A stretch of 64,000 nucleotides of DNA, taken from contig CAZGVO010000003.1 in assembly GCA_964529175.1 (NCBI GenBank), positions 195,120 to 259,119 of the forward strand. The letters run 5' to 3'. A program made the position numbers and the translations under genes. This DNA is from an uncultured Bifidobacterium sp. GTDB taxonomy: Bacteria; Bacteroidota; Bacteroidia; UKL13-3. The notes under the pieces were generated by a model. The model was not told the origin of the DNA. It saw only the letters and a list, made by a program, of their open reading frames with translations, and made no database searches. Positions within the stretch are counted from its first letter, which is position 1, and each line of letters begins with the position of its first letter. This document shows positions 12-26,090 of this stretch, piece by piece.

Positions 12-1007
12 ATGAACATATACGACATACTAAAGAAAAAAATTGTGATTTTGGATGGTGCAATGGGTACCATGATTCAACGACATAAATTGGAAGAAGC
101 TGATTTTAGGAATGAAGCTTTGGCAAATCACGCGCATCCTTTAAAAGGAAATAATGATCTACTTTCAATTACTCGTCCTGAAATTATTAAAGGCATTCAT
201 CGTTTGTATTTTGAAGCAGGCGCAGATATTGTTGAAACCAATACTTTTAGTGGAACCACTATTGCGCAAGCCGATTATCATTTAGAACATTTGGTAGATG
301 ACATCAATTATTACTCAGCAAAAATAGCCAAAGAGGTAGCCGATGAAATGACTGCCAAAGAACCACATAAACCAAGATTTGTGGCTGGTGCTATGGGACC
401 AACTAACAGAACTTTATCTATAAGCCCAGATGTAAACGACCCAGGTTATAGAGCTACTACTTTTGACGAATTGGTAAAAGCATATAAACAACAAGCTATC
501 AAATTAATTGAAGGTGGTGTAGATATTTTATTGATTGAAACCATTTTTGATACCTTAAATGCAAAGGCTGCCTTATTTGCTGTTGATGAAGTTTTTGAAG
601 AACTTGGAAAACATTATCCAGTAATGATTTCAGGAACTATTACGGATGCATCTGGCAGAACATTATCGGGTCAAACAACGGAGGCATTTTTAATTAGTAT
701 GCAACATGCGCCATTGATGAGTATTGGCTTAAATTGTGCATTAGGAGCAAGTGCTTTACGTCCTTATTTACAAGTAATGTCAACACATTCGCCATTTTAT
801 GTAAGTGCGTATCCAAATGCAGGATTGCCTAATGAGTTTGGACAATACGATGAAAGCCCTGCTGCTATGGCAAAACAAGTGGAAGAATTCTGCAAAGAAG
901 GATTGGTAAATATTTTAGGTGGCTGTTGCGGAACTACTCCTGATCACATCAAAGCTATTGCAGAAATGGCAGCGAAGTATGAACCGAGGATTATAGTTAA
1001 TAGTTAA
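12..1007 (+). CDS. Homocysteine S-methyltransferase domain protein, the N-terminal homocysteine-binding module of a split cobalamin-dependent methionine synthase
   Basis: The 331-aa ORF starts with ATG at 12. Its sequence matches the Hcy-binding barrel of MetH/MmuM, with motifs DGAMGT and [11 protein letters not shown]. It lies immediately upstream of the remaining MetH domains. Confidence 0.85.
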
Positions 1008-1075
1008 TAGACCATGGACCATAGAAAGTTTATGGTTAAGAGACCTTGGACCATAGAAGATTTATGGACAATAGT
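1008..1075. repeat. Palindromic repeat cluster (family GACCATGG/CCATAG) left of the four-helix-bundle gene
   Basis: The sequence is tagaccatggaccatagaa...gaccttggaccatagaa. It overlaps the last codons (IVNS, stop) of the upstream ORF. Confidence 0.55.
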
Positions 1076-1606: not shown

Positions 1607-4279
1607 ATGATCAAAGATTATACATTACGCCTTTCGGGCTTGGAGCCATTGGTAATTACTAAAGATACCAATTTTGTAAATGTGGGAGAAAGAACCAATG
1701 TAACGGGTTCTAAAATGTTTTTACGCCTTATACGTGAAGGTAATTTTGAAGAAGCTTTGGCTGTTGCTCGTCAGCAGGTAGAAGGCGGTGCGCAAATTAT
1801 CGACATCAATATGGATGAAGGAATGATTGATGGTGTGGAATCAATGGTTCGTTTTTTAAATTTGATTGCATCTGAACCAGATATTTCTCGCGTTCCTATC
1901 ATGATTGATTCTTCTAAATGGGAAATTATAGAAGCAGGATTAAAATGTGTGCAAGGTAAATGTGTGGTAAATTCTATTTCGCTAAAAGGTGGCGAAGAAG
2001 AATTTATCCGCCAAGCAAAAATTGTAAAACGTTTTGGAGCAGCAGTAATTGTAATGCTTTTTGACGAACAAGGACAAGCAGATAACTACGAACGTAGAAT
2101 AGAAATTGCAGAAAGAGCTTATCGAATCTTAACGGAAAAAGTTCATTTCCCTGCGGGTGATATTATTTTTGACCCTAATATTTTTCCAGTGGCTACCGGC
2201 ATGGAAGAGCACAGAAAAAATGCTTTAGATTTCTTTAACGGAACAAAATGGATTAAAGAAAATTTGCCAGGTGCAAAAGTTAGTGGTGGCGTTTCAAACG
2301 TTTCTTTTTCATTCAGAGGAAACGATAAAGTGCGCGAAGCCATGCACTCAGCATTTTTATTTCATGCCATCAATAACGGAATGGATATGGGTATTGTAAA
2401 TCCAAGTCAATTGGAAGTTTACGATCAAATAGATAAAGAATTATTAGAACATGTAGAGGATGTTTTATTAGATAGAAGAGACGATGCAACGGAACGTTTA
2501 TTGGAACTAGCCGAACGTGTTAAAGGAAAAGGAAAAGAAACTGCGGTTGACAACGAATGGCGCAAAGGAACAGTTCAAGAGCGTTTGAGTCATGCTTTAA
2601 TAAAAGGAATTGTTGAGTTTGTAGAAGCAGATACCGAAGAGGCAAGGTTAATTTACGACAAACCACTTGAAGTGATTGAAGGCCCTTTAATGGCCGGAAT
2701 GAACATTGTGGGTGATTTGTTTGGTGCTGGAAAAATGTTTTTACCGCAGGTAGTTAAAAGTGCACGTGTAATGAAAAAAGCCGTGGCTGTTTTGATGCCT
2801 TACATGGAAGAAGAAAAACGCAAAAATGGCAACATGACTACCAACCAAGGTAAAATATTGATGGCAACTGTTAAAGGCGATGTGCATGATATTGGAAAAA
2901 ATATTGTAGGTGTGGTTTTGGCTTGTAATAACTACGAAATTATTGACATTGGTGTAATGGTTCCTGCCGATAAAATTTTGGAAACTGCCATTAAAGAAAA
3001 TGTAGATGTAATTGGTTTAAGTGGATTAATTACACCAAGCTTGGACGAAATGGTGCATGTTGCCAAAGAAATGGAACGTTTAGGAATGAAAATACCATTA
3101 TTAATTGGAGGTGCTACCACCAGCCGTGCGCACACAGCAGTAAAAATTGACCCTGTTTACAGCGGACCAGTTGTACATGTGTTAGATGCAAGTAAAAGCG
3201 TGCCTGTGGCGGCAAGTTTAATTAGTCCTGACCAGCGACCAGCTTCGGAAAAGAAATTTAAAGACGAGTATGAACAATTTAGAATTGATTATAAAAACCG
3301 TAAAAAAGATAAAAACTCGGTTGATTTAGCAAAAGCAAGAACCAATAAAATTCCTGTAAGTTTTGATAATATAGTTGCACCTAAATTTTTAGGAACAAAA
3401 GTGTTTGATAATTTCCCCTTGGAAGAATTGCGCCAACGCATTGATTGGACTCCTTTCTTTTTAACATGGGAATTAGTAGGTCGTTATCCTGCCATTTTTG
3501 ATGATGAAATAGTTGGTGTAGAAGCCAAAAAATTATTTGACGATGCCAATAAAATGCTCGATAAAGTAATTAACGAAAAACTACTTACCGCACGCGGTGT
3601 AATTGGTTTTTATGAAGCAAATTCTGAAGGTGATGATATAATTATTTCCAACAACGGACAACCAACAACTTTCAACTATTTGCGCCAACAAGGCGAAAAA
3701 GCTGATGGACAACCTTACTTATGTTTGGCAGATTTTGTTGCTCCGAAAGAAAGTGGCAAAAAAGATTATTTAGGCATGTTTGCCGTAACAGCAGGAATTG
3801 GAATTGAGCCTTTGGTAGAAGCTTACGAAAAAGACCATGACGATTACAATAGCATTATGATTAAAGCCATTGCCGATAGATTGGCCGAGGCTTTTGCTGA
3901 AAAAATGCACGAATTGGTGAGAAAAGAATATTGGGGTTTTGCACCTAACGAGCAATTAACCGATGATGAAATAATCAGAGAAAAATACAATAGCATTCGC
4001 CCTGCGCCAGGTTACCCTGCCTGCCCAGACCATACCGAAAAACGTAAGTTGTTTGACATTTTGCAAGCTGAAACCAATGCAGGAATTACCTTAACGGAAA
4101 ACTTTGCCATGTATCCGGCTTCGGCAGTAAGTGGTTTTTATTTTGCCAATGAGGCAAGTAAATATTTTGCGGTAGGTAAAATTCAAAAAGACCAAGTTGA
4201 AGAATATGCCAAACGCAAAAACGTAAGCATTGACTACGTTGAAAAATGGTTAGCTCCTAATTTGGGATATGATAATTAG
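1607..4279 (+). CDS. metH: Methionine synthase (B12-dependent) carrying the pterin-binding, cobalamin-binding and AdoMet-activation domains
   Basis: The 890-aa protein begins RLSGLEPL...[12 protein letters not shown], which is colinear with E. coli MetH from the Hcy/pterin interdomain linker onwards. It contains the DxHDIGK B12-binding motif and the C-terminal activation domain. Confidence 0.9.
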
Positions 4280-4372
4280 TTGATAGTTGGTAGTTAATGG
4301 TTGTTAGAAATTACCGTCAGACGGTTATCACATTAACAACACATTTGGAATTTAATCATTAATTATAAAAAT

Positions 4373-4410
4373 AAAAACCGCTTTAGTGTAAAACTAAGCG
4401 GTTTTTTTTA
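4373..4410. terminator. Rho-independent terminator hairpin downstream of metH
   Basis: The hairpin is an A-run, then ccgctttag, a loop, ctaagcgg, and a T-run. Confidence 0.6.
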
Positions 4411-4478
4411 TTCTTTGGCTAAAGGAAATCAGAAGATGCTCGCACCAGCGGAGTGCAAACTACCTTAATTGCGGGGTA

Positions 4479-4653
4479 CTAAGCAATCTCAAGTTATGTT
4501 TGATAATTGCTACTCGCTTGAGATTGCTTCACTATGATCACAATGACGTTTGTTGCTGATTGATGAAAACTTTGACATAGTTTATGTTAATTTATTAAAG
4601 GAAGATGCTTACAGCATAACCTAGTGTGAAGTTTGGAGTGTTGATTGCGAAAT
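4479..4653. repeat. Copy 1 of a conserved intergenic element; a second copy lies at 14801-15059
   Basis: The core starts with cttgagattgcttc and ends with ggaagatgcttacagcatRaccWagtgYgaagttYggagtRttgattgYgaaat. It is roughly 80% identical to copy 2 over about 150 nt. The core is preceded by a perfect 13-bp inverted-repeat stem, ctaagcaatctcaag...cttgagattgctt. Confidence 0.6.
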
Positions 4654-4692: not shown

Positions 4693-5442
4693 TTATTTCA
4701 CTTTACGGCTAATTAAATTCAATAATGTATCCAACTTATCTGTTGATACTGATATTTGGTGATGTTTATTTACCAATGCATATCCCCCATCATTTCTTAC
4801 ATATTCAGTTATATAATTTATATTAACTATATACGATTTATGACTTCTGAAAAAGAATGGAGTATCAGCTAAAATATCCTCATAAGTTTTAAGGCTTTTA
4901 CTGGCTAAAACTTCGGTTTCATTGTTTAAAATAATGCGTGTATAAGCACCATCGGCTTTAAAAAACAATATATCGTTTATATCAATAAATTTTATAGACC
5001 CTGTAGTATAAATAGCTAATTTCCTTTGTTGTGTGGTGTTTGATAAGTTATCTTTTAAAATGCCAAAATTTTGCTTGTGATTTTGTTTTCTAAAACGTTC
5101 CAGTGCAGTTTCTAAATCAGCAATTTCAATAGGCTTTAGTAAATAATCGATGGCCGAAAACTTAAACGCTTGAATGGCATATTGGTTATAAGCTGTGGTA
5201 AAAATTACTGAAAAATTTATTTCCTCATCGTTAAAAAACTCCAATAACTCCAAACCGCTGTGTCCTGGCATTTCTATGTCTAAAAACACCAAATCAGGAT
5301 TGAGCTTTCGAATTGCTTTTACACCAGTAGGTAAATCTTTACAGCTTTCTACAATGGTTATATCGTTACAATATTCATTAAGCATGCCTTCCAATAAGGT
5401 GCGAGCCATTTTTTCATCATCTATAATTACAGCTTTGTACAT
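4693..5442 (-). CDS. LytTR-family two-component response regulator
   Basis: The 249-aa protein has an N-terminal receiver domain (IIDDE...FLDIEMPG) and a C-terminal LytTR DNA-binding domain. The start codon is ATG. Confidence 0.85.
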   Translation of the reverse strand: MYKAVIIDDEKMARTLLEGMLNEYCNDITIVESCKDLPTGVKAIRKLNPDLVFLDIEMPGHSGLELLEFFNDEEINFSVIFTTAYNQYAIQAFKFSAIDYLLKPIEIADLETALERFRKQNHKQNFGILKDNLSNTTQQRKLAIYTTGSIKFIDINDILFFKADGAYTRIILNNETEVLASKSLKTYEDILADTPFFFRSHKSYIVNINYITEYVRNDGGYALVNKHHQISVSTDKLDTLLNLISRKVK

Positions 5443-8697: not shown

Positions 8698-11600
8698 ATG
8701 AAAAAAATACTATTATTATTTTATTGCTTATGCACCATTTATGGATTGCAAGCACAAACACCCATTACCAATTGGGAGTATTCAATTGGCGATAATGGAG
8801 GAATTGAGCAAATTAAATCCTCGGCTTACGATGAAGCCGGAAACTTGTATGTAGCAGGCCATTTTTATGGAACGGTAGATTTAGACCACGGAACTGGAGC
8901 CTATTTACTAAGCGCTGCCGGAAGTTACGATGCTTTTGTGGCCAAATACAATTCGTTTGGTCAAATTTTATGGGCAGTACGTCTGGGAGGAACCATGGCC
9001 GAGTCAGTTAATCATTTATCGGTAGCAAATGGCTATGTGCTTTTAACAGGTTTTTTTCAAGGAACCATGAATGTATATGCTCCAAATTTTACAGCACCTT
9101 TAACCTCAGTTTCCAGTTCGTCCGATATTTTTATAGTACGTTTAGGAACAGATGGTTTATTTTATGCTAATGGCGCTTTTAAAATTGGTATGGGTGGAAA
9201 CGATGATGGAAAATGTGTAAAATCTGATGCTGCTGGAAACATTTATTTATCAGGCTTGTACTCAAGTCCTAATAATAATACCAATGTAAACTTTAACGTA
9301 CTTGGTGGTACCAATAATTTATTGGCTGCTGGTAGTGAAGATGGTTTTATAGTAAAATACAATAGCAATTTTGTATTACAATGGGTAAAATCGTACGGTG
9401 GAGGTTCTTTTAATGATGCAGTATTAACCATGGATATAGATAATAACCAAAATGTATATGCAGCTGGTTATTTTAATGGTACAAATGCAAGTTTTAACAA
9501 TAGTATATTCCTTACATCAGTTGGAGGTGCCGATGCTTTTATTTCAAAAATTGCAGCTAATGGAAATACCATATGGGCTAAACGAATAGGTGGTGGAAAT
9601 GGCGATGTAATTTCTACCATTAAACTTAATGGAAAAGGTGTAATATATGCTGGCGGTAACTTTAATGGATTAGCGAATTTAAACCCAAATGGAACCGCAC
9701 AAAACTTTACCGCTGTAGGTGGCGATGCCTTTATAAGTAAACTTGATACCAACCAAGCAACCGCTTTATGGATTAAACAATTTGGGGGAAGCGGGCCTGA
9801 TAATTTAAATGGACTTGATTTAGATACATTAGGAAATGTGTATACAACTGGCTCTTTTATAGGTTCGGCTGAGTTTCCTATTGGCATTTCAGCATCGGCA
9901 TTAAATAGTGGCAGTTGGAAAGATATTTTTGTAAGTAAACTAAATACCAATGGTGGTTTTGTTTGGTCCAAATCAATGGGTACTATCTTAGAAGATGATG
10001 GCTACAGTATTTCAGTTACTGCAAATGGTAACTATGCTTATATTACAGGAAGCAATCCTACATTTGGGCATGGTTACATGGCCAAAATTGGTGCTTGTGG
10101 CGAGTTAAAACCCATAATTGGTCTAACAAAATTATGTTCAAATACACAAAGGATTTATGCTGTAGATTCAGTTATAGGAGCTACTTCGTATGTTTGGACT
10201 TTACCTGCTGGTTGGGTTGGTACATCTAATACACGCAGCATTACAGTTACTCCAAGTGCTAACAGCGGAAATATTACTGTTAATGCCATTACTGCTTGTG
10301 GAGCTGGTTTTTCTCGTTCATTAAATATTAATTATGGAACTACAAATTTAGATAATAACTTAGTAAGGTATTGGCTTGCCAATGAAAACGACAACAATAA
10401 AGACATTAAGAATAACTTTGGCTTAACTTTGGTAAACACAGTTAAAGATACTGCTATGCACGGAACAGTTAATGGGGCTTATCGTATTTCAAATAATGCT
10501 GGTTTTATTCAATTGCAACCCACTGCCAATTTACCAACAGGCGCTACTTCTATTTCGTTATGGTATTATTACCAAAGTAATGGTGGAGGTGCAAATGTGG
10601 TATTAGGAAGTAACGGAACTGCTTTACCTGCATCGCATCCACTTATGTTAATTGATAATGCTTCGGCTACTTTATTCCCTTGGTCTAATACAGGTGCTGC
10701 CATAGGTAGTGGTGTTACCATAGCTCAAAATACTTGGCATCATATAGTATTAACGCGCAATGGAGCCAACTTTACTTTTTATGTAAATGGTGTTTTGGCC
10801 TACAGTGGCAATAATTTATCTGCTTCTAATTTTGATAGAATTGGAAACAATCGTCCTGGATTTGAAATACAAGGCGCTACAGGTAAGTTTGACGATATTA
10901 AAATTTATAATACCATTATCACCGAAGCACAGGTCAAATCGCTTTACGACTTTGGAAGCATTAAATCTGTTGATTTACTGACATCAGGTTGTAAAAATAA
11001 AACCATTTCATTTCAAGCTTTTTCAAGTAATAACAATGTCACTTACGGATGGAAGTTAAATGGAACGGTAGTAGGAAGTAGTTTACCAACTTTTGTTAAA
11101 ACGGCTGCATTAACCGATTCAGCAATTTCTGTTAGCGTAAATAGCCAATGTTTTGAAGAAACTATTTCTAAAAGTTTTAAAATTAATAGTATAGATAGTG
11201 TACAAATTATTAGCACTGATTGTGGCATTAAAGTTGGTAATAAAACATATATTGCTTCAGGCAATTATATTGATACTTTAGTTAATCAATTTGGCTGCGA
11301 TAGTATTGTATTTTTAAACCTAACTATTAGTAATAATCAACTTACCAATTTAAGCACTAATTTAATTAGGTATTGGACCTTAAATGCACAAGATTCAGCC
11401 AAGGATTTAACCAATAATTTTGTATTAAACAAATCATCGGGAATACTTTTTACCTCCGATAGGTTTGGAAACCCAAATACAGCCCAATTTATTCCGGCAT
11501 CGCCAAGCCAACAATTTACACCGGCAGTAAATATTCCAGCCAATGATTTTACCATTTCATTTTGGTATCAATTTACTTCCTCCACTTCAACCAATACCAG

Positions 11601-14600
11601 AGGTTTATTAACCAATACATTAGGAACCAATGCAGGTTATTATTTATATGCCGATGCCAATGGTAATTTATTATCAAACAATAATTTGGGAACAAGCACA
11701 AGTGCTAATTTTCAGTTTCAAAATAATAATTGGTATCATTTAACTTTTTCGTTAAATAATTTTGGAGTAGCTAAAATATACGTTAATGGCGAGTTGAAAC
11801 TTACCAACAATAATATGAGTTTGACTGGTATTGTTAGAATTGGACGAGGAGTTGGTACTTCAAATACTCCTGGTGTGGGTAGTTACGATGATATTAAAGT
11901 TTATAATACCGTTATTTCTGATGCCGATGTTTTAAAAATTTATGATAGACCAAGTATTATTAGTCGTCCTTTTTTGACTAATTTTTGTCAAAATAATTCA
12001 ACCAATTTTGCTTATAAAGTAAGCAGTTCAAACAATTCTTCTTATCAGTTTTTAAAAAATAATACAAGTGTAAGTAACGATACTTTTTATGTTGCAAATA
12101 ACCTAACCACAACCGATACTTTGGTAACATTTAAAGTGTTTTCAAAATGTGGTTATGAGGAGTTTAAAACACGTTTAAATGTTCAACCTACTAATATAAA
12201 TGTAATTGATTCATTTTGTGGTAGTTATGCTTACAATGGTAAAACTTACACAAATGCAGGAACCTATTACGACACCTTAGCTAATTTAAATGGATGTGCT
12301 GTAAATGTTCAATTAAATTTAACTTTTAAAGCTGGGGTAAATTTAAGTAATAATTTAACCCATCATTTTACACTAAACAATACTGAAAACATCAATTTAG
12401 TAAACTCAACCGCAGGTATAACAATATCTTCAACAGCTTTATCAATTGCTGGTAGAACAAATATTACAGCTACAGGTCGCTCTATTAATGCAGTAGCACA
12501 AAGTATGCAAATAGCTAGTTTACCTAACAGTAATTTAACGGTATCATTATGGTATCAGCGAACTACAAATAGTTATACTGGTGCAAGAACAATTATAGCC
12601 AATACTCAAGCCAATGGTAATATTGCAAAAATGGTTTATGCCAATTCTACTGGGGGAGTGCTTTTAGGTAATAGCACTACTACAGTTGGTGTTCCAACAG
12701 GTTTTACACTTAGCATTGGTGTTTGGTATCATATTGTTTATCAAGTAGCCAGTAATGGCGATGCAAAACTTTTTATCAACGGAAATTTAGTAAGTAGTAT
12801 TACAGGATTGCCATTAAATACCATCGCAATAATTGGTAATAGAAACGATGGAAATGAGCCTGGTATTGGGAACTATGATGATATTAAAATATATAACAAA
12901 ATTTTATCAGCAGATGAAATTTCTAAATTATACAAAATACCTTCTTTGATTGCTAAACCATCTCTTATGCAAGTTTGCGAAGGCAGTAGTGCACTACTAA
13001 CTTACCATTTTAGTGGAAATACGGGTACTAGATATGAATATAAAAAGAATGGAGTAACTTTATCTGCCGATTCGTTTTTACAAATAAATAATACCAACTT
13101 AAACGATACTTTATTTGAGTTTACAATCAATAATAGTTGCGGTTTTGAGCAATATACAACTAAAGTAAATGTTGCCCCTGCTGCTGGTGTTGGACAAAGT
13201 TTAGCTTATAGCAAAACAACCAATAGAATTACTGCCACAACAAGTTTTACTAGATACAAATTATTTAGAAATGGTGTTGTTATTGATTCTAGTAATACAA
13301 CAGGCAATATAAATTTCTTAACTACTTTATGTGGTAATTATGTTGCCCATTACAGTAATATTGGTTCTGCTAATTGCCCAGCAATTTCGCCTGTTCTAAA
13401 AATAGATTTAGATACATTAACCTTAAATACTAAAATATGTGCTGGTAAAATTTATGTATTTGGAAGCCAACAATTGAATACACCTGGCACTTATTACAGA
13501 ACAACTACTAGCACTAACGGCTGCGATAGCATAATAAAACTTAACCTTACTTTGGCTAATTCAAGCACGGCTAGTGTTAATAGAGTAAGTTGTGGTAGTT
13601 TAGTAATTTATGGTAAGACTTACACTCAAACAGGTCAATATAAAGATACATTAATAAATACTGCTGGTTGCGATAGTATTGTAACTTTAAACTTAACTAT
13701 AAACACTGGCGGACCTGCTATTAATAATATTGTTCAATCAACTTGTAACAACTTTGTTTTAAATGGAAAAACATACACCAATACTGGCATATACCGCGAT
13801 ACCTTATTTGCAGCAAGTATTACTGGTTGCGATAGCATTTTGGTACTTAATTTAACCAATTTAAAAAATGGGTTTAATCAAAATATAATTGCTTGCAAAA
13901 GCTATGTCTTTAAGGGAGTAACCATTACACAAAGTGGCACATATCGTGATACTTTAACCAATACAGCAGGTTGCGATAGTATTGTGGTTTATAACATAAA
14001 CATAACTACGGTAAATAAAATAGTAACCAAAACCGGAAATATATTAACGGCATCTGCTACAAATGCCATATACCAATGGATAAATTGTACTACCAATTTG
14101 CCAATAGCCAATGCTAATATGCAAAGTTATACGCCAACGGTTTCGGGTAGCTACAAAGTAATAATTACTCAAAATGGTTGTATTGATACATCAGCTTGTA
14201 CCAATGTAATCATCATTAATTGTAATTTACAGCTAACTCATAATGTACTGAATCCAACCGATACCATTCGTTGTAAGCAAGTTAAAGTAAATATAACCAA
14301 TGGTTCATTGCCAATTGCTTTAAAACTAACTTGGAGCACCAATATAATTGGCTTGAATTTAAACATAACCGATTCAGCTTATACCTTTAACGATGCATGC
14401 CCTGAAACTTACAAATTGGTTGCAACTGATAATAATGGTTGCAAAGATTCTATTAATTTCACTATCAATGAGCCAACAATTGGTGTAAATGATATCAATG
14501 AAAATACATTTAGCATGTATCCAAATCCTGCAAATAAAATTTTGATTATTAACAATTTAAGCAAAGAGTCTCAAATCAATATTTTTGATATAACAGGTAG

Positions 14601-14733
14601 AATAATTTATGCTGAAAATATATTGACCTCAAATACTAAGCTTGATATTGAAAATTGGAAAGATGGAATTTATACTGTGCAAGTAATAACCGAAGGTAAA
14701 ATTGCCAACAGAAAGCTTGTTATAGCTAAATAA
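8698..14733 (+). CDS. T9SS type-A C-terminal-sorting-domain cargo protein with an SBBP beta-propeller, three LamG/concanavalin-like modules and a ~42-aa two-Cys repeat
   Basis: The 2011-aa protein has a signal peptide. N-terminal SBBP-like repeats recur (DAFVAKYNSFGQILWAVRLGG and similar). Three copies of a LamG-like module each end ...YDDIK(I/V)YN.(I/V)(I/L)S..(E/D)(V/I)..LY. At least six repeats follow the pattern C...NGKTYT..G.Y.DTL.N..GCDSIV.LNLT. The C-terminus is a Por_Secre_tail (YPNPANKILII...GIYTVQV). Confidence 0.8.
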   Translation: MKKILLLFYCLCTIYGLQAQTPITNWEYSIGDNGGIEQIKSSAYDEAGNLYVAGHFYGTVDLDHGTGAYLLSAAGSYDAFVAKYNSFGQILWAVRLGGTMAESVNHLSVANGYVLLTGFFQGTMNVYAPNFTAPLTSVSSSSDIFIVRLGTDGLFYANGAFKIGMGGNDDGKCVKSDAAGNIYLSGLYSSPNNNTNVNFNVLGGTNNLLAAGSEDGFIVKYNSNFVLQWVKSYGGGSFNDAVLTMDIDNNQNVYAAGYFNGTNASFNNSIFLTSVGGADAFISKIAANGNTIWAKRIGGGNGDVISTIKLNGKGVIYAGGNFNGLANLNPNGTAQNFTAVGGDAFISKLDTNQATALWIKQFGGSGPDNLNGLDLDTLGNVYTTGSFIGSAEFPIGISASALNSGSWKDIFVSKLNTNGGFVWSKSMGTILEDDGYSISVTANGNYAYITGSNPTFGHGYMAKIGACGELKPIIGLTKLCSNTQRIYAVDSVIGATSYVWTLPAGWVGTSNTRSITVTPSANSGNITVNAITACGAGFSRSLNINYGTTNLDNNLVRYWLANENDNNKDIKNNFGLTLVNTVKDTAMHGTVNGAYRISNNAGFIQLQPTANLPTGATSISLWYYYQSNGGGANVVLGSNGTALPASHPLMLIDNASATLFPWSNTGAAIGSGVTIAQNTWHHIVLTRNGANFTFYVNGVLAYSGNNLSASNFDRIGNNRPGFEIQGATGKFDDIKIYNTIITEAQVKSLYDFGSIKSVDLLTSGCKNKTISFQAFSSNNNVTYGWKLNGTVVGSSLPTFVKTAALTDSAISVSVNSQCFEETISKSFKINSIDSVQIISTDCGIKVGNKTYIASGNYIDTLVNQFGCDSIVFLNLTISNNQLTNLSTNLIRYWTLNAQDSAKDLTNNFVLNKSSGILFTSDRFGNPNTAQFIPASPSQQFTPAVNIPANDFTISFWYQFTSSTSTNTRGLLTNTLGTNAGYYLYADANGNLLSNNNLGTSTSANFQFQNNNWYHLTFSLNNFGVAKIYVNGELKLTNNNMSLTGIVRIGRGVGTSNTPGVGSYDDIKVYNTVISDADVLKIYDRPSIISRPFLTNFCQNNSTNFAYKVSSSNNSSYQFLKNNTSVSNDTFYVANNLTTTDTLVTFKVFSKCGYEEFKTRLNVQPTNINVIDSFCGSYAYNGKTYTNAGTYYDTLANLNGCAVNVQLNLTFKAGVNLSNNLTHHFTLNNTENINLVNSTAGITISSTALSIAGRTNITATGRSINAVAQSMQIASLPNSNLTVSLWYQRTTNSYTGARTIIANTQANGNIAKMVYANSTGGVLLGNSTTTVGVPTGFTLSIGVWYHIVYQVASNGDAKLFINGNLVSSITGLPLNTIAIIGNRNDGNEPGIGNYDDIKIYNKILSADEISKLYKIPSLIAKPSLMQVCEGSSALLTYHFSGNTGTRYEYKKNGVTLSADSFLQINNTNLNDTLFEFTINNSCGFEQYTTKVNVAPAAGVGQSLAYSKTTNRITATTSFTRYKLFRNGVVIDSSNTTGNINFLTTLCGNYVAHYSNIGSANCPAISPVLKIDLDTLTLNTKICAGKIYVFGSQQLNTPGTYYRTTTSTNGCDSIIKLNLTLANSSTASVNRVSCGSLVIYGKTYTQTGQYKDTLINTAGCDSIVTLNLTINTGGPAINNIVQSTCNNFVLNGKTYTNTGIYRDTLFAASITGCDSILVLNLTNLKNGFNQNIIACKSYVFKGVTITQSGTYRDTLTNTAGCDSIVVYNINITTVNKIVTKTGNILTASATNAIYQWINCTTNLPIANANMQSYTPTVSGSYKVIITQNGCIDTSACTNVIIINCNLQLTHNVLNPTDTIRCKQVKVNITNGSLPIALKLTWSTNIIGLNLNITDSAYTFNDACPETYKLVATDNNGCKDSINFTINEPTIGVNDINENTFSMYPNPANKILIINNLSKESQINIFDITGRIIYAENILTSNTKLDIENWKDGIYTVQVITEGKIANRKLVIAK

Positions 14734-14751: not shown

Positions 14752-14793
14752 AACAGCCTCCATAAAATAAAATTTATGGAGGCTGTTTTGTTT
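14752..14793. terminator. Rho-independent terminator after the T9SS cargo gene
   Basis: The stem is acagcctccat...atggaggctgt, followed by a T-run. Confidence 0.6.
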
Positions 14794-14800
14794 ACTATGC

Positions 14801-15059
14801 TAAGCAATCGCTAGCGTCCCGCTAGTGAGGTTTTAGCGAAGCCTCAGGCAACAATCTAGCTTCGTAAAGACGTTTAATTAAACGTCTCTACCAAATACAA
14901 AACTTGCTTGAGATTGCTTCTCTGCATTCTACATGACCTTTGCTGTTGATTCAAAAAAAACTTTGTCAAAGTTAAGTATAATGGAAAACAATAAGTTAAT
15001 GCAAGGAAGATGCTTACAGCATGACCAAGTGCGAAGTTCGGAGTATTGATTGTGAAATT
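14801..15059. repeat. Copy 2 of the conserved intergenic element; copy 1 lies at 4479-4653
   Basis: The same cttgagattgcttc...ggaagatgcttacagcat...ttgattgtgaaat core is present. The left stem is split by an insertion of about 100 nt that has its own hairpins, gacgtttaattaaacgtc and ctagcg..cgctag. Confidence 0.6.
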
Positions 15060-15154
15060 TTATCACTCTTTGCATGACAACTAATCTCCAAATCTAAAAA
15101 TCAACAACTCTCTAAATTCAATCTATGGTCTATTAACCATAAACCAACTAAAAA

Positions 15155-17272
15155 TTACTTCAAACTTCTAGCCAACCAATCAAAGAAAACTCGTTGCCAA
15201 AGCACACTGTTTTGAGGTTTGGTTACCCAATGGTTTTCGTCAGGAAAGTATAAAAACCTACTTGGAATCCCTTTAATTTGAGCTGCGGTAAAAGCTTCCA
15301 TTCCTTGGCCTAGTGGTACTCTAAAATCTTTTTCGTTATGAATAACTAACATAGGTGCATCCCAATTTTGTACAAATTTATGTGGCGATGCATCAAAGTT
15401 ATTTGGATGTGAGGTTTGGCTCCAATACGGACCTTTATTATCGTGGTTGGCAAAAAACATTTCTTCGGTAGTGCCATACCAACTTTCCATATTAAACATA
15501 CCACAATGAGCTATAAAAGTTTTAAAACGCTTGTTATGATTGCCTGCTAACCAATAAACCGAAAATCCGCCAAAGCTTGCCCCTACTGCGCCAAGCTTAT
15601 CTTTATCTACATAACTTTCTTTGCATAAATCGTCAATAGCGCTTAAATAATCGCGCATACATTGTCCACCATAATCGCCTGTAATTTGGTTATTCCAATC
15701 GCTTCCATGGCCTGGCATTCCACGTCTGTTTGGTGCAATTACTATATAACCATTTGCAGCCATTAGTTCAAAATTCCATCTATAACTAAAAAACTGTGTT
15801 AATGCACTTTGTGGACCACCTTGACAATACAATAAAGTTGGGTATTTTTTGGTAGGATCGAAATTTGGCGGATAAATTACCCAAGCTAACATATCGGCAC
15901 TATCGGTAGTTTTTACCATGCGTTTGCGCACCTCGCCCATGGCTACATTGTTTAAAACATCTTTATTAGTAAAAGTAATTTGTTTTTCTTTACCTGTTTG
16001 CAAGTCAATTTCAAACAACTCGGCAGGCATTGAAATACTCATTTTATTAATAACTACCTTACCCGATTTTAAACTTCCATTTACGCTAAATGCACCATAA
16101 TCCCAATCGCCTACAGTTATAATTTTAATACGTTCAGTTTCCTTTTTTACATCAAAGTTATAGGCAAACAATTGTTTGGTGCCTTGGTAAGGAGCTGTAA
16201 AATAAACTACTTTTCCATCGCTACTGATTGAAAAATTTTCAATTGGGTAATCAAAATTAGCTCTGCTAGTTAATACAGTAAAGGGTTTAAGGGTAACTGG
16301 TTTGTCTTTAGCCGAAATAATAAAATCAATGTTTAAATAAACCAATCTATTCAAATCACTTTCGTTGCCTTCGCCTTCCATGCTTTGCCAAAATATTTTT
16401 TTTCCGTCAGGTGTAAACTGAGGATTTTTATCATAACCTTTATTGCTAACCGAAATATTAATAGTTTGTTTGGTAGCAAAATTGTATAAATAAATATCGC
16501 TATTGGTAGAAATGGCCTCGGCTGTTCCTGTTTGTTTACGGCTGTTGTAAGCTATTCGGGTTCCATCAGGACTCCAGTTAAACTCATCATCATCGCCATG
16601 AGGTTGAAGCGGACAATCAAATTTTTCGTCTTGCATTAAATCCTTTCCATCGCCCATTACACCATAAGTTAAATCGGCTACAAAAAGATGGCTGTAAGCA
16701 TAATCGTGCCAACTATCCCAATGACGGTAAAATAATCCATCAATAATTCTGGCATTACATTTATCTAAATCAGGATATAAATCTTTTACCTCATTATCCA
16801 ATTTAACATCGGCCGTGTAGGCTATTTTATTCATAGCTGGCGAGTATTTATAACCACTTACACCACCTCTTACAAAACTTAATTGGGTAATTTCAGTTCC
16901 ATCTATGTTCATTTCCCAAATTTGCGCATCGCCACTTTTGGTACACAAATAACTTATTTTTTTGCCATCGGGCGTAAAGCGTGCACTAAAGGCATTTACC
17001 TCTGGTGTGGTTATTTGTTTCTTTTGGCCGGTGGCTAAAGTTAGCAAATAATAAATATTGGTGCTTTTATTGGTTTTTACATCGTAATGCCTCACGCTGT
17101 AAAGTACTGTTTTGCCATCGGCCGAAAGTTGAGGCTCGCTTACACGGCCTAGTTGCCAAAGTTTTTCAATGGTTAAAGTTTGCACTGGCTGAGCTTTTAC
17201 GGTATTATTTACAAAAAATAAATTGGCTGCAATACCTGCAAATACACAAATTGATTTTAAATTTAATTTCAT
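15155..17272 (-). CDS. S9-family serine peptidase (prolyl oligopeptidase or dipeptidyl aminopeptidase-like) with an N-terminal beta-propeller
   Basis: The 705-aa protein has a signal peptide and TolB/WD40-like repeats. It carries the GxSxGG catalytic motif (GASFGGF) and C-terminal Asp/His. Confidence 0.8.
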   Translation of the reverse strand: MKLNLKSICVFAGIAANLFFVNNTVKAQPVQTLTIEKLWQLGRVSEPQLSADGKTVLYSVRHYDVKTNKSTNIYYLLTLATGQKKQITTPEVNAFSARFTPDGKKISYLCTKSGDAQIWEMNIDGTEITQLSFVRGGVSGYKYSPAMNKIAYTADVKLDNEVKDLYPDLDKCNARIIDGLFYRHWDSWHDYAYSHLFVADLTYGVMGDGKDLMQDEKFDCPLQPHGDDDEFNWSPDGTRIAYNSRKQTGTAEAISTNSDIYLYNFATKQTINISVSNKGYDKNPQFTPDGKKIFWQSMEGEGNESDLNRLVYLNIDFIISAKDKPVTLKPFTVLTSRANFDYPIENFSISSDGKVVYFTAPYQGTKQLFAYNFDVKKETERIKIITVGDWDYGAFSVNGSLKSGKVVINKMSISMPAELFEIDLQTGKEKQITFTNKDVLNNVAMGEVRKRMVKTTDSADMLAWVIYPPNFDPTKKYPTLLYCQGGPQSALTQFFSYRWNFELMAANGYIVIAPNRRGMPGHGSDWNNQITGDYGGQCMRDYLSAIDDLCKESYVDKDKLGAVGASFGGFSVYWLAGNHNKRFKTFIAHCGMFNMESWYGTTEEMFFANHDNKGPYWSQTSHPNNFDASPHKFVQNWDAPMLVIHNEKDFRVPLGQGMEAFTAAQIKGIPSRFLYFPDENHWVTKPQNSVLWQRVFFDWLARSLK

Positions 17273-24746: not shown

Positions 24747-24905
24747 AGAATAATGCATGAACGTCATGCTGAGGCACGAAGCATCTTTATAAGGTGTAAT
24801 AAAGTTCCTTCTTCCGCTTTGGCGGAATCAGGATGACGATCCCGCACAAAAAAACAAAGAAACAAACGGCCAGAGGCTAACAACCAAAAGCCAGAAGCAA
24901 AAAAT

Positions 24906-25598
24906 ATGAAAATAGGTGTATTAATATTTCCGGGAAGTAATTGCGATAAAGACGCAGTTTGGGCATTTCAAAACATGTTTGGCCAAGAAGTAGTAGAACT
25001 TTGGCATAAAGATACTGATTTACAAAATGTAGATTTGGTGTTTTTACCAGGTGGTTTTAGCTATGGCGATTATTTACGCAGCGGTGCAATTGCCCGTTTT
25101 TCGCCTATTATGCAAAGTGTAATTGAATTTGCCAATAATGGCGGATTGGTTTGGGGCGTTTGTAATGGTTTTCAAATTTTATGCGAAAGCGGTTTATTGC
25201 CTGGCGCATTGATGCATAACGACCATCAAAAGTTTAATTGCAAAAATGTGTTTATAAAAACCGAAACCAATAACAGTAAAATTACCAGTTTAAATGAAGT
25301 AGGAAAAGCTTTGAAAATTCCAATTGCACATGGAGAAGGAAGATTCTATTGCAACGATGAATTATTGCAAGATTTAAAAGCAAACGATCAAATTTTATTT
25401 AGATACTGCGATGAAAATGGAAACGTTTCTGCTGAAACCAATCCTAATGGCGCATTGGATAATATAGCTGGAATTTGTAATAAAAACCGCAATGTGTTTG
25501 GCATGATGCCTCACCCAGAACGTGCGGTAGATGGTGATATTTACAATACTGACGGACGCATTATGTTCGAAAGTTTGTTGCAGTTGGTTAATAGTTAA
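24906..25598 (+). CDS. purQ: Phosphoribosylformylglycinamidine synthase subunit PurQ (glutaminase)
   Basis: The 230-aa protein is a class-I glutamine amidotransferase with GVCNGFQ and HPE motifs. Confidence 0.85.
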
Positions 25599-25640
25599 TA
25601 GACGATAGACCATGGTCAATTAACTATGGACTATTATCTA
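25590..25640. repeat. Third locus of the palindromic GACCATGGTC/GACGATAG repeat family, wedged between the convergent purQ and dtd stop codons
   Basis: The sequence gttaatagttaatagacgatagaccatggtc...ctatggacta shares its first 17 nt with the copy at 1001-1017. The repeat supplies the codons VNS and a TAA-TAG double stop to purQ. Confidence 0.6.
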
Positions 25641-26090
25641 TTCCTTCAACTTACTATCAATCATTATAGTCACAGGGCCATTATTGGTTAAGCTGATTTG
25701 CATATCGGCACCAAATGATCCTGTGGCTATTTTTTTGCCCAAAAGCTCTTCCAGTTTTGCAATCATTTTTTCGTACAAAGGAATTGCAAATTCGGGCCTA
25801 CTAGCTTTGATATAAGATGGGCGGTTTCCTTTTTTAGTAGAGGCAAAAAGTGTAAATTGACTTACCAATAAAATATCGAAATTGGCATCAATAAGTGAAA
25901 TATTCATCACGCCATTTTCATCGTTAAACACCCTGAGATTTACTATTTTCTGTGCCAACCAATTGATATCTTCTTCCGAATCAGCATCCTCAATTCCTAA
26001 TAAAATCAATAAACCATTTCCGATTTCAGAAAATAGTTTGTTATCAATACGGACTTGGGCTTTTGTAACTCGTTGAATAATAATGCGCAT
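25638..26090 (-). CDS. dtd: D-aminoacyl-tRNA deacylase
   Basis: The 150-aa protein begins MRIIIQRV and carries the SQFTL and NGPVT motifs. Confidence 0.85.
   Translation of the reverse strand: MRIIIQRVTKAQVRIDNKLFSEIGNGLLILLGIEDADSEEDINWLAQKIVNLRVFNDENGVMNISLIDANFDILLVSQFTLFASTKKGNRPSYIKASRPEFAIPLYEKMIAKLEELLGKKIATGSFGADMQISLTNNGPVTIMIDSKLKE

What the first reader, a model, noticed from the sequence alone, without database searches (positions are those of the whole stretch)
4479..4653. Conserved ~150-nt intergenic element present twice (4479-4653 and 14801-15059), each in a convergent-gene spacer just past a terminator
The two copies are about 80% identical. The core runs cttgagattgcttc ... 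ggaagatgcttacagcatRaccWagtgYgaagttYggagtRttgattgYgaaat. Both sit 3' of large genes (metH; the T9SS cargo) and after an intrinsic terminator. Copy 1 begins with a perfect 13-bp stem. Copy 2 has the stem split by a 100-nt hairpin-rich insertion. The element could be a small ncRNA gene, a MITE, or a 3'-UTR-derived sRNA family.
Basis: seen in the sequence. Interest (0 to 1): 0.5.

Follow-up and report, generated by a model that had tools for sequence, protein, structure and literature searches.

The report
Hairpin repeats tied to Ssn nuclease
The twice-occurring 150-base element is not an RNA gene: it is a worn mosaic of short DNA hairpin repeats that, in related bacteria, flank a tiny nuclease gene known in Neisseria to cut single-stranded DNA, so it is a Bacteroidota version of a recently described system.

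Summary
Window 4512-4653 and 14902-15058 match at 111 of 142 aligned bases (BLAST E 2e-19), and both lie between convergent genes next to a terminator.

The element is a mosaic of short hairpin modules, not one unit. All modules share the frame (C/T)GTCAT-stem-loop-stem-ATC. This is the frame of CGTC-tagged REPs and of the Neisseria NTS/"Ssn-related motifs". The "13-bp stem" is the tails of two such modules facing each other.

- In a relative's syntenic locus (L042) and in six other loci, these modules flank a ~98-aa single-domain GIY-YIG gene on both sides. One further locus had them downstream only.
- That protein is 48% identical to the NTS-flanked 94-aa GIY-YIG ORF of Neisseria gonorrhoeae, which I take to be its SsnA.
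- Other Bacteroidota carry the same unit in tandem arrays of 179-187 nt.
- There is no Rfam hit, no conserved fold and no covariation within the element. An RNA gene is not supported.

The window copies have damaged tags and stems, and the copy-2 orthologue has decayed differently. They are probably ageing relics of Ssn-target repeats.

The modules differ from published ones: stems are 5 bp, and the published search pattern gives no hit. I rate this a new variant of a known kind, of modest interest.

The parts
4375..4410 (.). Bidirectional intrinsic terminator shared by metH (+) and the LytTR/histidine-kinase operon (-). It marks the left limit of locus 1.
   Evidence: Sequence (AAAAACCGCTTTAG...CTAAGCGGTTTTTTTT). 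It folds as the terminal hairpin of the minus-strand 3' region.
4432..4464 (+). Degenerate remnant of a neighbouring unit. It comprises a decayed SRM-B (GAAGATGCTCGCACCAGC) and the short conserved segment GGAGTGCAAACTACC, which in intact units reads AAGTGCGGAAACTACC.
   Evidence: Compared by eye with the intact unit in L117 and L097.
4465..4493 (+). SRM-A module, forward on the + strand: TTAATTGCGGGGTACTAAGCAATCTCAAG. The stem ATTGC/GCAAT, the C after it and the tail TCAAG are intact. The tag is decayed (CTTA instead of CGTC). Its tail is the left arm of the 13-bp stem.
   Evidence: Consensus CGTCATTGCGAGGAACGAAGCAATCTCAAG.
4494..4516 (.). 23-nt spacer between the two facing SRM-A tails. In the relative L042 and in L128 this position holds the GIY-YIG (ssn-like) gene.
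4517..4548 (-). SRM-A module, forward on the - strand: CGTCATTGTGATCATAGTGAAGCAATCTCAAG. The CGTC tag and tail are intact. The stem has one mismatch (ATTGT/GCAAT). It forms the right arm of the 13-bp stem.
4549..4599 (-). Conserved linker of the composite unit. It includes the optional palindrome AAACTTTGACATAGTTT (about 4567-4583).
   Evidence: Alignment A2. The palindrome is absent from the L117, L121 and L129 copies.
4600..4621 (-). SRM-B module, forward on the - strand: GGTTATGCTGTAAGCATCTTCC. The stem ATGCT/AGCAT and the following C are intact. The tag is mutated (GTT instead of GTC), as in the orthologues L042 and L044.
4622..4653 (+). Short conserved segment TAGTGTGAAGTTTGG followed by a 5' half of an SRM-A module (AGTGTTGATTGCGAAAT). 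This is the common right end of both window copies and of L042 and L044.
14752..14787 (.). Bidirectional intrinsic terminator between the T9SS cargo gene (+) and the S9 peptidase gene (-).
   Evidence: One search detects it on both strands..
14800..14809 (+). 3' half of an SRM-A module (CTAAGCAATC). It is identical to window 4479-4488 and forms the left end of copy 2.
14810..14906 (.). 97-nt hairpin-rich spacer variant. L044 shares its 3' two-thirds (14839-14906). It contains the hairpin GTAAAGACGTTTAATTAAACGTCTCTAC (14864-14891), which in L159 is duplicated around a 680-nt ORF-bearing insertion.
14907..14938 (-). Decayed SRM-A module, forward on the - strand: GGTCATGTAGAATGCAGAGAAGCAATCTCAAG. 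The tail is intact, the 5' stem arm is destroyed and the tag reads GGTC.
14939..15004 (-). Conserved linker with the palindrome AACTTTGTCAAAGTT and the TAATGG segment.
15005..15026 (-). SRM-B module, forward on the - strand: GGTCATGCTGTAAGCATCTTCC. This is the best preserved module of the two copies.
15027..15058 (+). Short conserved segment AAGTGCGAAGTTCGG followed by a 5' half of an SRM-A module (AGTATTGATTGTGAAAT). This is the right end of copy 2.
24762..24838 (.). Third site of the family, in the 159-nt spacer between the AIR-synthase-like gene and the GATase gene. A canonical module CGTCATGCTGAGGCACGAAGCATCTTTAT (24762-24790, +) faces a near-canonical inverted partner (24804-24838, -). 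Together they fold as one long imperfect hairpin.
   Evidence: The DNA fold gives -19.5 kcal/mol, z -4.25.

Best explanation
The element is a Bacteroidota-type cluster of CGTC-tagged hairpin repeats. These are the REP-like "Ssn-related motifs" (SRM) described in Neisseria.

Each module has a 5' tag (C/T)GTC, a short palindrome that starts and ends with AT, a C directly after the palindrome, and a tail. Two module types occur here:
- SRM-A: CGTCAT-TGC-loop-GCA-ATCTCAAG
- SRM-B: (C/T)GTCAT-GCT-GTA-AGC-ATCTTCC

The two types are joined by a conserved linker into a unit of about 180 nt. Other Bacteroidota carry this unit in tandem arrays.

Most likely mechanism: when the DNA is single-stranded, during replication, conjugation or DNA uptake, a module folds into its hairpin. 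A cognate ~98-aa GIY-YIG Ssn nuclease encoded elsewhere in the genome binds it in one orientation and nicks a few bases 5' of the tag. This affects recombination of that DNA. The repeats also act as substrates for unequal recombination, which adds, removes and reshuffles modules and small gene cassettes.

Shown here: the module architecture, compensatory stems across the family, the arrays, the flanking of ssn genes, homology of that gene to the NTS-flanked Neisseria ORF, and locus rearrangements at the modules.

Inferred: that this genome has an active cognate Ssn, that it cuts these sites, and any effect on the host. Most window modules carry damaged tags or stems. They are probably ageing relics with little remaining activity.
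For: 1. Frame identity with published motifs. NTS is CGTCAT|TCCCGCG|MAV|GCGGGA|ATC and NTSvar is CGTCAT|ACTCGGG|N5|CCCGAGT|ATC (PMC11893778). CGTC REPs have AT as the first stem pairs, and the tag can be TGTC (PMC3733652). The window modules have the same frame.

2. Family statistics.
- 271 modules occur in 836 kb of motif loci, against 49 in reversed-sequence controls.
- 85% have C after the palindrome, and the base before GTC is T or C in 90%.
- In GIY-YIG loci there are 1.55 modules per kb (102 against 15 in controls). Of these, 92% have the C, and the base before GTC is C or T in all 94 modules that carry it.

3. Hairpin kept by compensatory change. In the frame GTCAT-N3-loop-N3-ATC, leaving out the module used for the search, 70 of 155 are fully complementary. 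Chance predicts 1 in 64. Nine stem types occur.

4. Gene association.
- The syntenic locus L042 carries a GIY-YIG ORF exactly in the spacer between the two facing SRM-A tails.
- L128, L129, L134, L139, L148 and L092 have modules near the gene; all but L139 have them on both sides (L139 downstream only).
- The flanks of L129 are the window-type composite itself.

5. Family membership of the gene. P0004 is 48% identical (E 6e-27) to a 94-aa N. gonorrhoeae ORF flanked by canonical NTS. I take that ORF to be its SsnA.

6. Tandem arrays of period 179, 187 and 109 nt occur in other genomes.

7. Dynamics at the modules.
- L042 has about 500 extra bases (two more SRM-A dimers and ssn) bounded by a ~100-bp direct repeat.
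- L044 loses synteny exactly at 4512 and carries a copy-2-type left part.
- L159 has a 680-nt insertion bounded by a duplicated hairpin.

8. P0004 occurs in the same sequencing-run series as the window's own genes.
Against: - No ssn gene lies in the 64-kb window. Whether this genome encodes one is unproven.
- The published SRM search pattern gives no hit in the window. Stems are only 5 bp (-2.4 to -2.7 kcal/mol as DNA, against -8.9 for NTS). Loops are 3 or 9-14 nt, unlike the described CGTC families.
- Most window modules have altered tags (GGTC, GGTT, CTTA) or broken stems. The copy-2 orthologue in L159 has decayed at different positions. This argues against present selection on nuclease recognition at that locus.
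- Starting from the motif, ssn is rarely nearby: 2 of 117 loci and 1 of 39. This is expected if repeats far outnumber genes, but it gives no support.
- The linker is conserved across genomes for no reason I can explain.
- Copy 1 is better conserved than the adjacent spacer: 84-90% against 44-49%. An RNA-level role could also explain that.
Confidence: 0.75

Rival explanations
1. The element is now a functionless relic. It arose as a duplicated piece of a hairpin-repeat array and is slowly decaying. It persists only because deletion is slow. This accepts the same origin as the best explanation but denies any present activity.
For: - Tags and stems are damaged in most window modules.
- The two lineages carrying copy 2 (the window and L159) have decayed at different module positions.
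- Both copies end in a half module.
- Conservation of copy 1 (84-90%) is close to third-codon-position identity of the neighbouring genes, 75-88%.
- The shared block has no more structure than shuffled sequence.
Against: - Copy 1 is far better conserved than the 39 bases next to it (44-49%).
- SRM-B keeps a perfect stem and the key C in both copies and in L042 and L044.
- The third site at 24762-24838 is nearly canonical.
Confidence: 0.35
2. The element acts at the RNA level as part of the 3' untranslated region of the minus-strand genes (the LytTR regulator operon and the S9 peptidase). Like classical REPs, its hairpins would slow 3' exonucleases or modulate termination. A small RNA might be processed from it.
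For: - On the minus strand both copies lie between a stop codon (4693; 15155) and a bidirectional terminator (4375-4410; 14752-14787), so they should be transcribed.
- The whole 3' regions fold better than shuffles, with z of -2.8 and -5.0.
- REPs in general sit downstream of genes and between convergent genes (PMC3733652).
Against: - No Rfam match appears.
- The consensus fold of 16 copies is a single 4-bp hairpin at -1.5 kcal/mol with no compensatory pair.
- The extra structure of the 3' regions comes from the terminators, the facing SRM-A tails and the copy-2 spacer, not from the shared block.
- Modules occur in both orientations and in many contexts, including directly upstream of genes.
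- Neisseria SsnA does not bind RNA (PMC11893778).
Confidence: 0.15
3. The element is a MITE or REPIN moved by a transposase, either a RAYT/IS200-IS605 tyrosine transposase or another IS enzyme, and has nothing to do with the GIY-YIG gene.
For: - The family is dispersed and multi-copy.
- Inverted doublets 24 nt apart in one MAG resemble REPINs.
- A copy-2-type variant sits at the copy-1 locus in another genome (L044).
Against: - The tag is CGTC/TGTC, not the GTAG of RAYT-associated REPs. CGTC REPs have no known dedicated transposase (PMC3733652).
- No protein family recurs next to the motif in 117 loci apart from common regulators and kinases.
- tblastn with IS608 TnpA and an E. coli RAYT found nothing in 1.34 Mb.
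- On inspection of the flanks, the two window copies show no target-site duplication or shared terminal inverted repeats.
- Array ends differ from locus to locus.
Confidence: 0.08

Closest known systems
NTS / Ssn-related motifs (SRM) and the SsnA GIY-YIG single-strand nuclease of Neisseria (Chenal et al. 2025, PMC11893778)
   Same: - The invariant frame CGTCAT-stem-loop-stem-ATC is the same, with a C after the palindrome and a directional tag.
- Modules flank a single-domain ~94-100-aa GIY-YIG gene on both sides.
- The Bacteroidota protein is 48% identical to the NTS-flanked Neisseria ORF.
- Repeats far outnumber genes, and they are intergenic and clustered.
   Different: - Stems are 5 bp instead of 8.
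- Loops are 3 or 9-14 nt.
- Tails are CTTCC or CTCAAG.
- The published degenerate pattern does not match.
- Modules are built into a ~180-nt two-module unit with a conserved linker.
- No biochemical or genetic data exist for this lineage.
- The window has no ssn gene, and most of its modules are degenerate.
CGTC-tagged REP families CGTC-1 to CGTC-4 (Di Nocera et al. 2013, PMC3733652)
   Same: - The unpaired CGTC tag can also read TGTC.
- AT forms the first stem pairs.
- A short unpaired tail follows the stem.
- Copies are often paired in opposite orientation.
- They sit downstream of genes and between convergent genes.
- The family was reported in Bacteroidetes among five phyla.
   Different: - The described families have 8-9-bp stems, 4-5-nt loops and a CCA-like tail.
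- Head-to-head dimers predominate there. Here tail-to-tail SRM-A pairs and same-orientation SRM-B plus SRM-A units are prominent.
BIMEs of E. coli and NIMEs of Neisseria (intergenic mosaic arrays of REP or dRS3 hairpins with linkers). The NIME description is from my own knowledge (Parkhill et al. 2000), not from a tool.
   Same: Intergenic arrays alternate short hairpins with 50-150-nt linkers. Copy number varies between relatives. The arrays sit at operon ends.
   Different: E. coli BIMEs use GTAG-type REPs tied to a RAYT transposase. Here the hairpins are CGTC-type and tied to a GIY-YIG nuclease.
REPIN / RAYT system
   Same: Inverted doublets of a short hairpin repeat form a longer hairpin (the third site at 24762-24838, and the doublets in M3-S_metawrap_bin.56). 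A single-copy gene is flanked by its own repeats.
   Different: The tag differs, the enzyme family differs (GIY-YIG rather than HUH/Y1), and no evidence of transposition was obtained here.

Membership tests
CGTC-tagged REP / Ssn-related motif (SRM) | An unpaired 5' tag CGTC (TGTC tolerated) directly before the palindrome | tested here: met
   Family level: the base before GTC is T or C in 90% of motif-locus modules, and in all 94 C-tailed modules of the ssn loci. In the window the tag is intact at 4517-4548(-) and 24762-24790(+). It is altered at 4600-4621 (GTT), 15005-15026 and 14907-14938 (GGTC), and 4465-4493 (CTTA).
CGTC-tagged REP / Ssn-related motif (SRM) | The palindrome starts and ends with AT and is followed directly by C, the base most critical for SsnA binding in Neisseria | tested here: met
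   229 of 271 modules (85%) and 94 of 102 (92%) have the C. It is present in all window modules that keep a 3' arm.
CGTC-tagged REP / Ssn-related motif (SRM) | The hairpin is maintained, so stems covary across the family | tested here: met
   70 of 155 frames are fully complementary against 1/64 expected, with 9 stem types. Within the window-type subfamily the stems are invariant, so they give no information.
CGTC-tagged REP / Ssn-related motif (SRM) | Fits the published dimensions: 8-9-bp stem and 4-5-nt loop, or the pattern HGTCWYN(0-2)YYVSBRHN(0-5)WNVSBRGN(0-2)RNCYNB | tested here: not met
   The pattern gives 0 hits in the window although it matches NTS controls. Stems are 5 bp and loops 3 or 9-14 nt. 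For this reason I file the element as a variant, not a plain member.
CGTC-tagged REP / Ssn-related motif (SRM) | Modules flank a single-domain ~94-100-aa GIY-YIG (Ssn) gene | tested here: met
   Both sides in L042, L128, L129, L134, L148 and L092; downstream only in L139. Pfam PF01541 only. Not met inside the window itself, which has no GIY-YIG ORF.
CGTC-tagged REP / Ssn-related motif (SRM) | The associated protein is homologous to characterised SsnA (CDD cd10448) | tested here: met
   P0004 against the NTS-flanked 94-aa N. gonorrhoeae ORF gives 48% identity, E 6e-27. Similarity to UPF0213 (1ZG2) is only weak, E 0.004. The CDD assignment itself could not be run.
CGTC-tagged REP / Ssn-related motif (SRM) | High copy number in the host genome | tested here: inconclusive
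   Individual MAGs (M3-S_metawrap_bin.56, Ca. Zhuqueibacter) yield many loci each, about 15 to 50. The window has only three sites in 64 kb, and the rest of the source genome was not available.
CGTC-tagged REP / Ssn-related motif (SRM) | Strand-specific binding and cleavage of single-stranded DNA by the cognate Ssn | not testable with these tools
   This needs purified protein and oligonucleotides.
REP/REPIN mobilised by a RAYT (IS200/IS605-type Y1 transposase) | GTAG tag and a RAYT gene flanked by the repeats | tested here: not met
   The tag is CGTC/TGTC. No recurrent transposase-like ORF cluster was found.
MITE | Defined terminal inverted repeats and a target-site duplication | tested here: not met
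   Judged by inspection only. The flanks of the two window copies share no duplication. Array ends differ among loci. The extra segments in L042 and L159 are bounded by 40-100-bp direct repeats of modules, which points to recombination.
Structured small RNA (Rfam-type family) | A match to a known family, or a conserved secondary structure with covariation | tested here: not met
   Rfam gives no hit at gathering scores and only chance-level hits at E up to 10. RNAalifold finds 4 pairs at -1.5 kcal/mol with 0 compensatory pairs. Fold z-scores are -0.2 and +0.6.

The most novel reading that the evidence does not exclude
The hairpin modules may act as cassette boundaries of a mobile system driven by the GIY-YIG single-strand nuclease. 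In this reading, SRM-ssn-SRM is an autonomous element, and gene-less units such as the two window copies are its non-autonomous derivatives.

Hints:
- The ssn gene is present or absent exactly between two facing SRM-A tails at one syntenic locus (window against L042).
- A 155-aa ORF in L159 is bracketed by a duplicated hairpin.
- The two ends of copy 2 (a 3' half module at 14800-14809 and a 5' half module at 15042-15058) would together rebuild one complete SRM-A hairpin. That is what one would expect if a one-period circle had been opened in the hairpin loop and inserted, loosely like integron cassettes split at attC.

The published Ssn work raises the resemblance to insertion sequences but did not test it.
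Probability: 0.15. Interest if true: 0.7.

Novelty: new variant of a known kind. Interest (0 to 1): 0.3.

Why it matters
It settles what the feature is. Annotators meeting this conserved intergenic block in Bacteroidota should not call it an sRNA gene.

It extends the Ssn/SRM repeat system, characterised experimentally only in Neisseria and Wolbachia, to freshwater and soil Bacteroidota. The variant found here has hairpins too short for the published search pattern, so censuses based on that pattern may undercount it.

The cross-phylum identity of one 22-base module, and the gain and loss of small genes exactly at module boundaries, give concrete test cases. They bear on whether these nuclease-and-repeat pairs are mobile elements or domesticated recombination controls.

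The paired sequences (nuclease P0004 with SRM-A, and the L092 nuclease with SRM-B) are ready candidates for new single-strand-DNA cutting specificities.

Tried and rejected
- Rfam at gathering and permissive thresholds: nothing relevant.
- Viral-contig scan with the 18-mer: four hits, all in one unrelated coding sequence.
- Two metagenome-contig scans with composite-specific patterns (CAGYAACRAACGTCATTGCGA and AACAAACGTCATTGCGATC): 0 hits. JGI-derived loci fetched by protein look-up do contain the second pattern, so that collection is simply not exhaustive.
- Published SRM degenerate pattern: 0 hits in the window.
- Search for a recurrent neighbouring gene in 117 motif loci by all-against-all BLASTP of ORFs: only common regulator, kinase and receptor families.
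- IS200/IS605 TnpA and RAYT tblastn: no hits. The queries were from memory, so this is weak.
- Ssn genes near an exact SRM-A 24-mer in 39 viral-collection loci: only 1 of 39 within 1 kb. The motif-to-gene direction is therefore uninformative.
- Literature search for the literal sequences: only chance primer matches.
- GC skew of the window, used to try to place the modules on the leading or lagging strand: not interpretable.
- Group II intron 5' end, suggested by GTGYG in the 3' block: dropped, because similarity ends 30 nt later and no intron domains or reverse transcriptase are present.
- tRNA-fragment or att-site idea: dropped once the module structure was clear.
- sigma-70-type promoter scan: no more sites than in shuffles.
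Full report
**Observation.** The two copies are real. Window 4512-4653 and 14902-15058 share 111 of 142 aligned bases (78%), with BLAST E 2e-19 inside the window. The 18-mer GGAAGATGCTTACAGCAT occurs exactly twice against 0.03 expected. The 13-bp inverted repeat at 4481-4493 / 4517-4529 is perfect.

Locus 1 has metH (1607-4279, +) and a LytTR response regulator (4693-5442, -). Locus 2 has a 2011-aa T9SS cargo protein (8698-14733, +) and an S9 peptidase (15155-17272, -).

Both terminators (4375-4410 and 14752-14787) work in both directions. On the minus strand the elements therefore sit between a stop codon and the terminator.

- About eight hits are chance matches in coding sequence.
- The rest are intergenic repeats, with many copies per genome in MAGs labelled Bacteroidota, Calditrichia, Ca. 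Zhuqueibacter and others.
- Everywhere the 18-mer is part of GGAAGAT-GCT-TAC-AGC-ATGAC(A/G). Read on the other strand this is (C/T)GTCAT-GCT-GTA-AGC-ATCTTCC.
- It is usually paired with a second hairpin of the same frame but a different stem, for example TGTCAT-TCC-GCA-GGA-ATCTTCC.

The other conserved piece of the window element, CTTGAGATTGCTTC...CAATGACG, has the same frame on the minus strand: CGTCAT-TGC-loop-GCA-ATCTCAAG. I call the two types SRM-A (TGC/GCA stem, tail CTCAAG) and SRM-B (GCT/AGC stem, tail CTTCC).

**Anatomy.** Several Bacteroidota carry the window-type sequence in tandem arrays of period 179 nt (L097), 187 nt (L121) and 109 nt (L092). The 179-nt unit has six parts:
1. AAGTGCGGAAACTA
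2. SRM-A, forward
3. a ~16-23-nt spacer
4. SRM-A, reverse
5. a ~65-nt linker
6. SRM-B, reverse

Window locus 1 (4432-4653) reads as a decayed part 6, then parts 1 to 6, then part 1 and the 5' half of part 2. Locus 2 (14800-15058) reads as the 3' half of part 2, a 97-nt spacer variant, then parts 4, 5, 6 and 1 and the same 5' half of part 2.

The "100-nt insertion" is an alternative spacer, most of which L044 also carries. A third, nearly canonical pair of modules lies at 24762-24838, between an AIR-synthase-like gene and a glutamine amidotransferase gene.

**What the modules are.** A full-text search led to two papers.
- Di Nocera et al. 2013 (PMC3733652) defined CGTC-tagged REPs. These have an unpaired CGTC tag (sometimes TGTC), AT as the first stem pairs and a short tail. 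They occur in five phyla including Bacteroidetes and have no known transposase.
- Chenal et al. 2025 (PMC11893778) showed that the Neisseria member, NTS = CGTCATTCCCGCGMAVGCGGGAATCYRG, is bound as single-stranded DNA by SsnA, a 94-aa single-domain GIY-YIG nuclease. SsnA cuts a few bases upstream. The C after the palindrome is critical for binding, and the bases before it are critical for cutting. In their survey 71% of ssn homologues had such "Ssn-related motifs" nearby.

The frame CGTCAT...ATC is identical in NTS, NTSvar and the modules here.

**Tests of that link.**
- *Module statistics.* 271 modules occur in the motif loci against 49 in reversed-sequence controls, and 85% have the C. In ssn loci there are 1.55 modules per kb (102 against 15), 92% have the C, and the tag base is C (86%) or T (14%).
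- *Compensatory stems.* Leaving out the module used for the search, 70 of 155 frames are perfectly complementary against 1/64 expected, with nine stem types.
- *Gene association at the syntenic locus.* L042 is the metH-LytTR locus of a relative (86% DNA identity). It has about 500 extra bases containing two more SRM-A pairs and a GIY-YIG ORF. The ORF sits exactly in the spacer between two facing SRM-A tails.
- *Gene association elsewhere.* The protein has more than 1000 relatives of about 98 aa in Bacteroidota. Five distinct homologue loci were fetched (L128, L129, L134, L139, L148). All have CGTCATTGCGA...GAAGCAATC modules next to the gene, on both sides in four and downstream only in L139. 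The flanks of L129 are the window-type composite itself. L092 has a more distant homologue embedded in an SRM-B array.
- *Homology to SsnA.* P0004 matches a 94-aa ORF on a N. gonorrhoeae chromosome (filed among plasmids) at 48% identity, E 6e-27. That ORF is flanked by canonical NTS. Because of its length and NTS flanks I take it to be the gonococcal SsnA.
- *Same sample series.* P0004 was found in the same sequencing-run series as the window's own genes, and on a 306,789-bp NCBI contig. The window's genes lie on a 363,546-bp contig. This suggests, but does not prove, that the source organism has an ssn gene.

**Against an RNA gene.**
- Rfam gives nothing.
- A 16-copy alignment from eight loci (seven distinct genomes plus the window) gives a consensus structure of four base pairs at -1.5 kcal/mol, with no compensatory pair.
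- The shared block folds no better than shuffles, as DNA z -0.2 and +0.6.
- The excess structure of the whole 3' regions (z -2.8 and -5.0) comes from the terminators, the facing tails and the copy-2 spacer.

**State of the window copies.** Copy 1 is 90% identical to its L042 orthologue and 84% identical to its L044 orthologue. Third-codon positions in the neighbouring genes are 75-88% identical, and the adjacent 39-nt spacer 44-49%.

Copy 2 has an orthologue in L159 (GCA_027484685.1; peptidase 98% identical). There SRM-B and SRM-A are damaged at positions different from those in the window. A 680-nt segment with a 155-aa ORF is also inserted between two copies of a spacer hairpin. A more distant relative (L160, 71%) lacks the element.

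In the window itself only 4517-4548, 15005-15026 and 24762-24790 keep most key positions. The copies look like ageing relics, with at most weak constraint.

**Dynamics.**
- The extra DNA in L042 is bounded by a ~100-bp direct repeat of modules.
- L044 loses synteny with the window exactly at 4512 and carries a copy-2-type left part.
- The L159 insertion is bounded by a 40-nt duplicated hairpin.

These are the marks of recombination at repeated modules. Site-specific mobility is not excluded.

**Other checks.**
- No transposase recurs near the repeats.
- Starting from the motif, ssn is rarely close by (2 of 117 loci; 1 of 39). This is expected when repeats far outnumber genes.
- An exact SRM-A 24-mer occurs in 39 contigs of the viral collection, in very varied flanks. 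The minimal dispersed unit is therefore the single ~30-nt hairpin.

**Verdict.** The finding is a genuine repeat, and its nature is now clear. It is a Bacteroidota variant of the CGTC-REP / Ssn-related-motif family, arranged as a BIME-like mosaic, gene-less and partly decayed in this window.

It differs from the published definitions in three ways: 5-bp stems, different loops and tails, and no match to the published search pattern. I therefore rate it a new variant of a known kind, with modest interest.

The more novel possibility is that the modules are boundaries of cassettes moved by the GIY-YIG nuclease. It is not excluded, but rests on a few suggestive junctions.

Noticed in passing
window 981-1074, 1467-1608, 4277-4307, about 15095-15140, 25558-25641: A second intergenic repeat family has a 7-nt period (TATGGAC / GATAGAC / CATAGAC / TAGTTAA). 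At 995-1074 and 1467-1598 it brackets a 116-aa ORF (1114-1464, Pfam 23S_rRNA_IVP, E 7e-36). That ORF is inserted between the homocysteine S-methyltransferase gene and the rest of metH, and looks like a small gene cassette flanked by repeats. The same repeat type lies next to SRM modules in L090, L124 and L159.
   Followed up: partly
window 24762-24838: A third, nearly canonical inverted pair of CGTC-tagged modules lies between two co-directional genes. It folds as one long hairpin (-19.5 kcal/mol, z -4.25).
   Followed up: yes
L159 3914-4594 (GCA_027484685.1, JAIXSO010000046.1): In a close relative, the copy-2 spacer hairpin GGTATTTGGTAGAGACGTTTAATTAAACGTCTTTAC is duplicated around a 680-nt insertion. 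The insertion carries a 155-aa ORF with no Pfam match. It resembles a cassette gained at a hairpin.
   Followed up: partly
L011-L127 (genome scan): The exact 22-mer GGAAGATGCTTACAGCATGACA is shared by MAGs labelled Bacteroidota, Calditrichia and Ca. Zhuqueibacter, and by unclassified bacteria. In M3-S_metawrap_bin.56 it forms REPIN-like inverted doublets 24 nt apart in dozens of loci. Such identity across phyla suggests horizontal spread of one nuclease-and-repeat pair.
   Followed up: no
L044, L021, L038 (JBGSBN01..., labelled Candidatus Methylacidiphilales): L044 is 87% identical to this window over 7.2 kb, including the LytTR regulator, the kinase and the T9SS cargo gene. Those genes are Bacteroidota-like, so the contig's taxonomic label (Verrucomicrobiota) is probably a binning error.
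   Followed up: no
L042 about 2065-2071 (minus strand): The ssn-like ORF at the syntenic locus has ACG where close homologues have the ATG start (MTKGG...). That copy may be a pseudogene.
   Followed up: no
L161-L199 (IMG/VR contigs): An exact 24-nt SRM-A module occurs in 39 predicted viral contigs. It is often directly upstream of a divergently oriented start codon, or forms tail-to-tail pairs 35-45 nt apart. Whether these are true phage sequences or host flanks was not checked.
   Followed up: no
window 4567-4583 and 14958-14973; L097 3462-3492; L099; L159 3783-3816: The palindrome AACTTTGTCAAAGTT inside the linker is an optional sub-module. It is absent from the L117, L121 and L129 copies and tandemly doubled in L097, L099 and L159. 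Its role is unknown.
   Followed up: no
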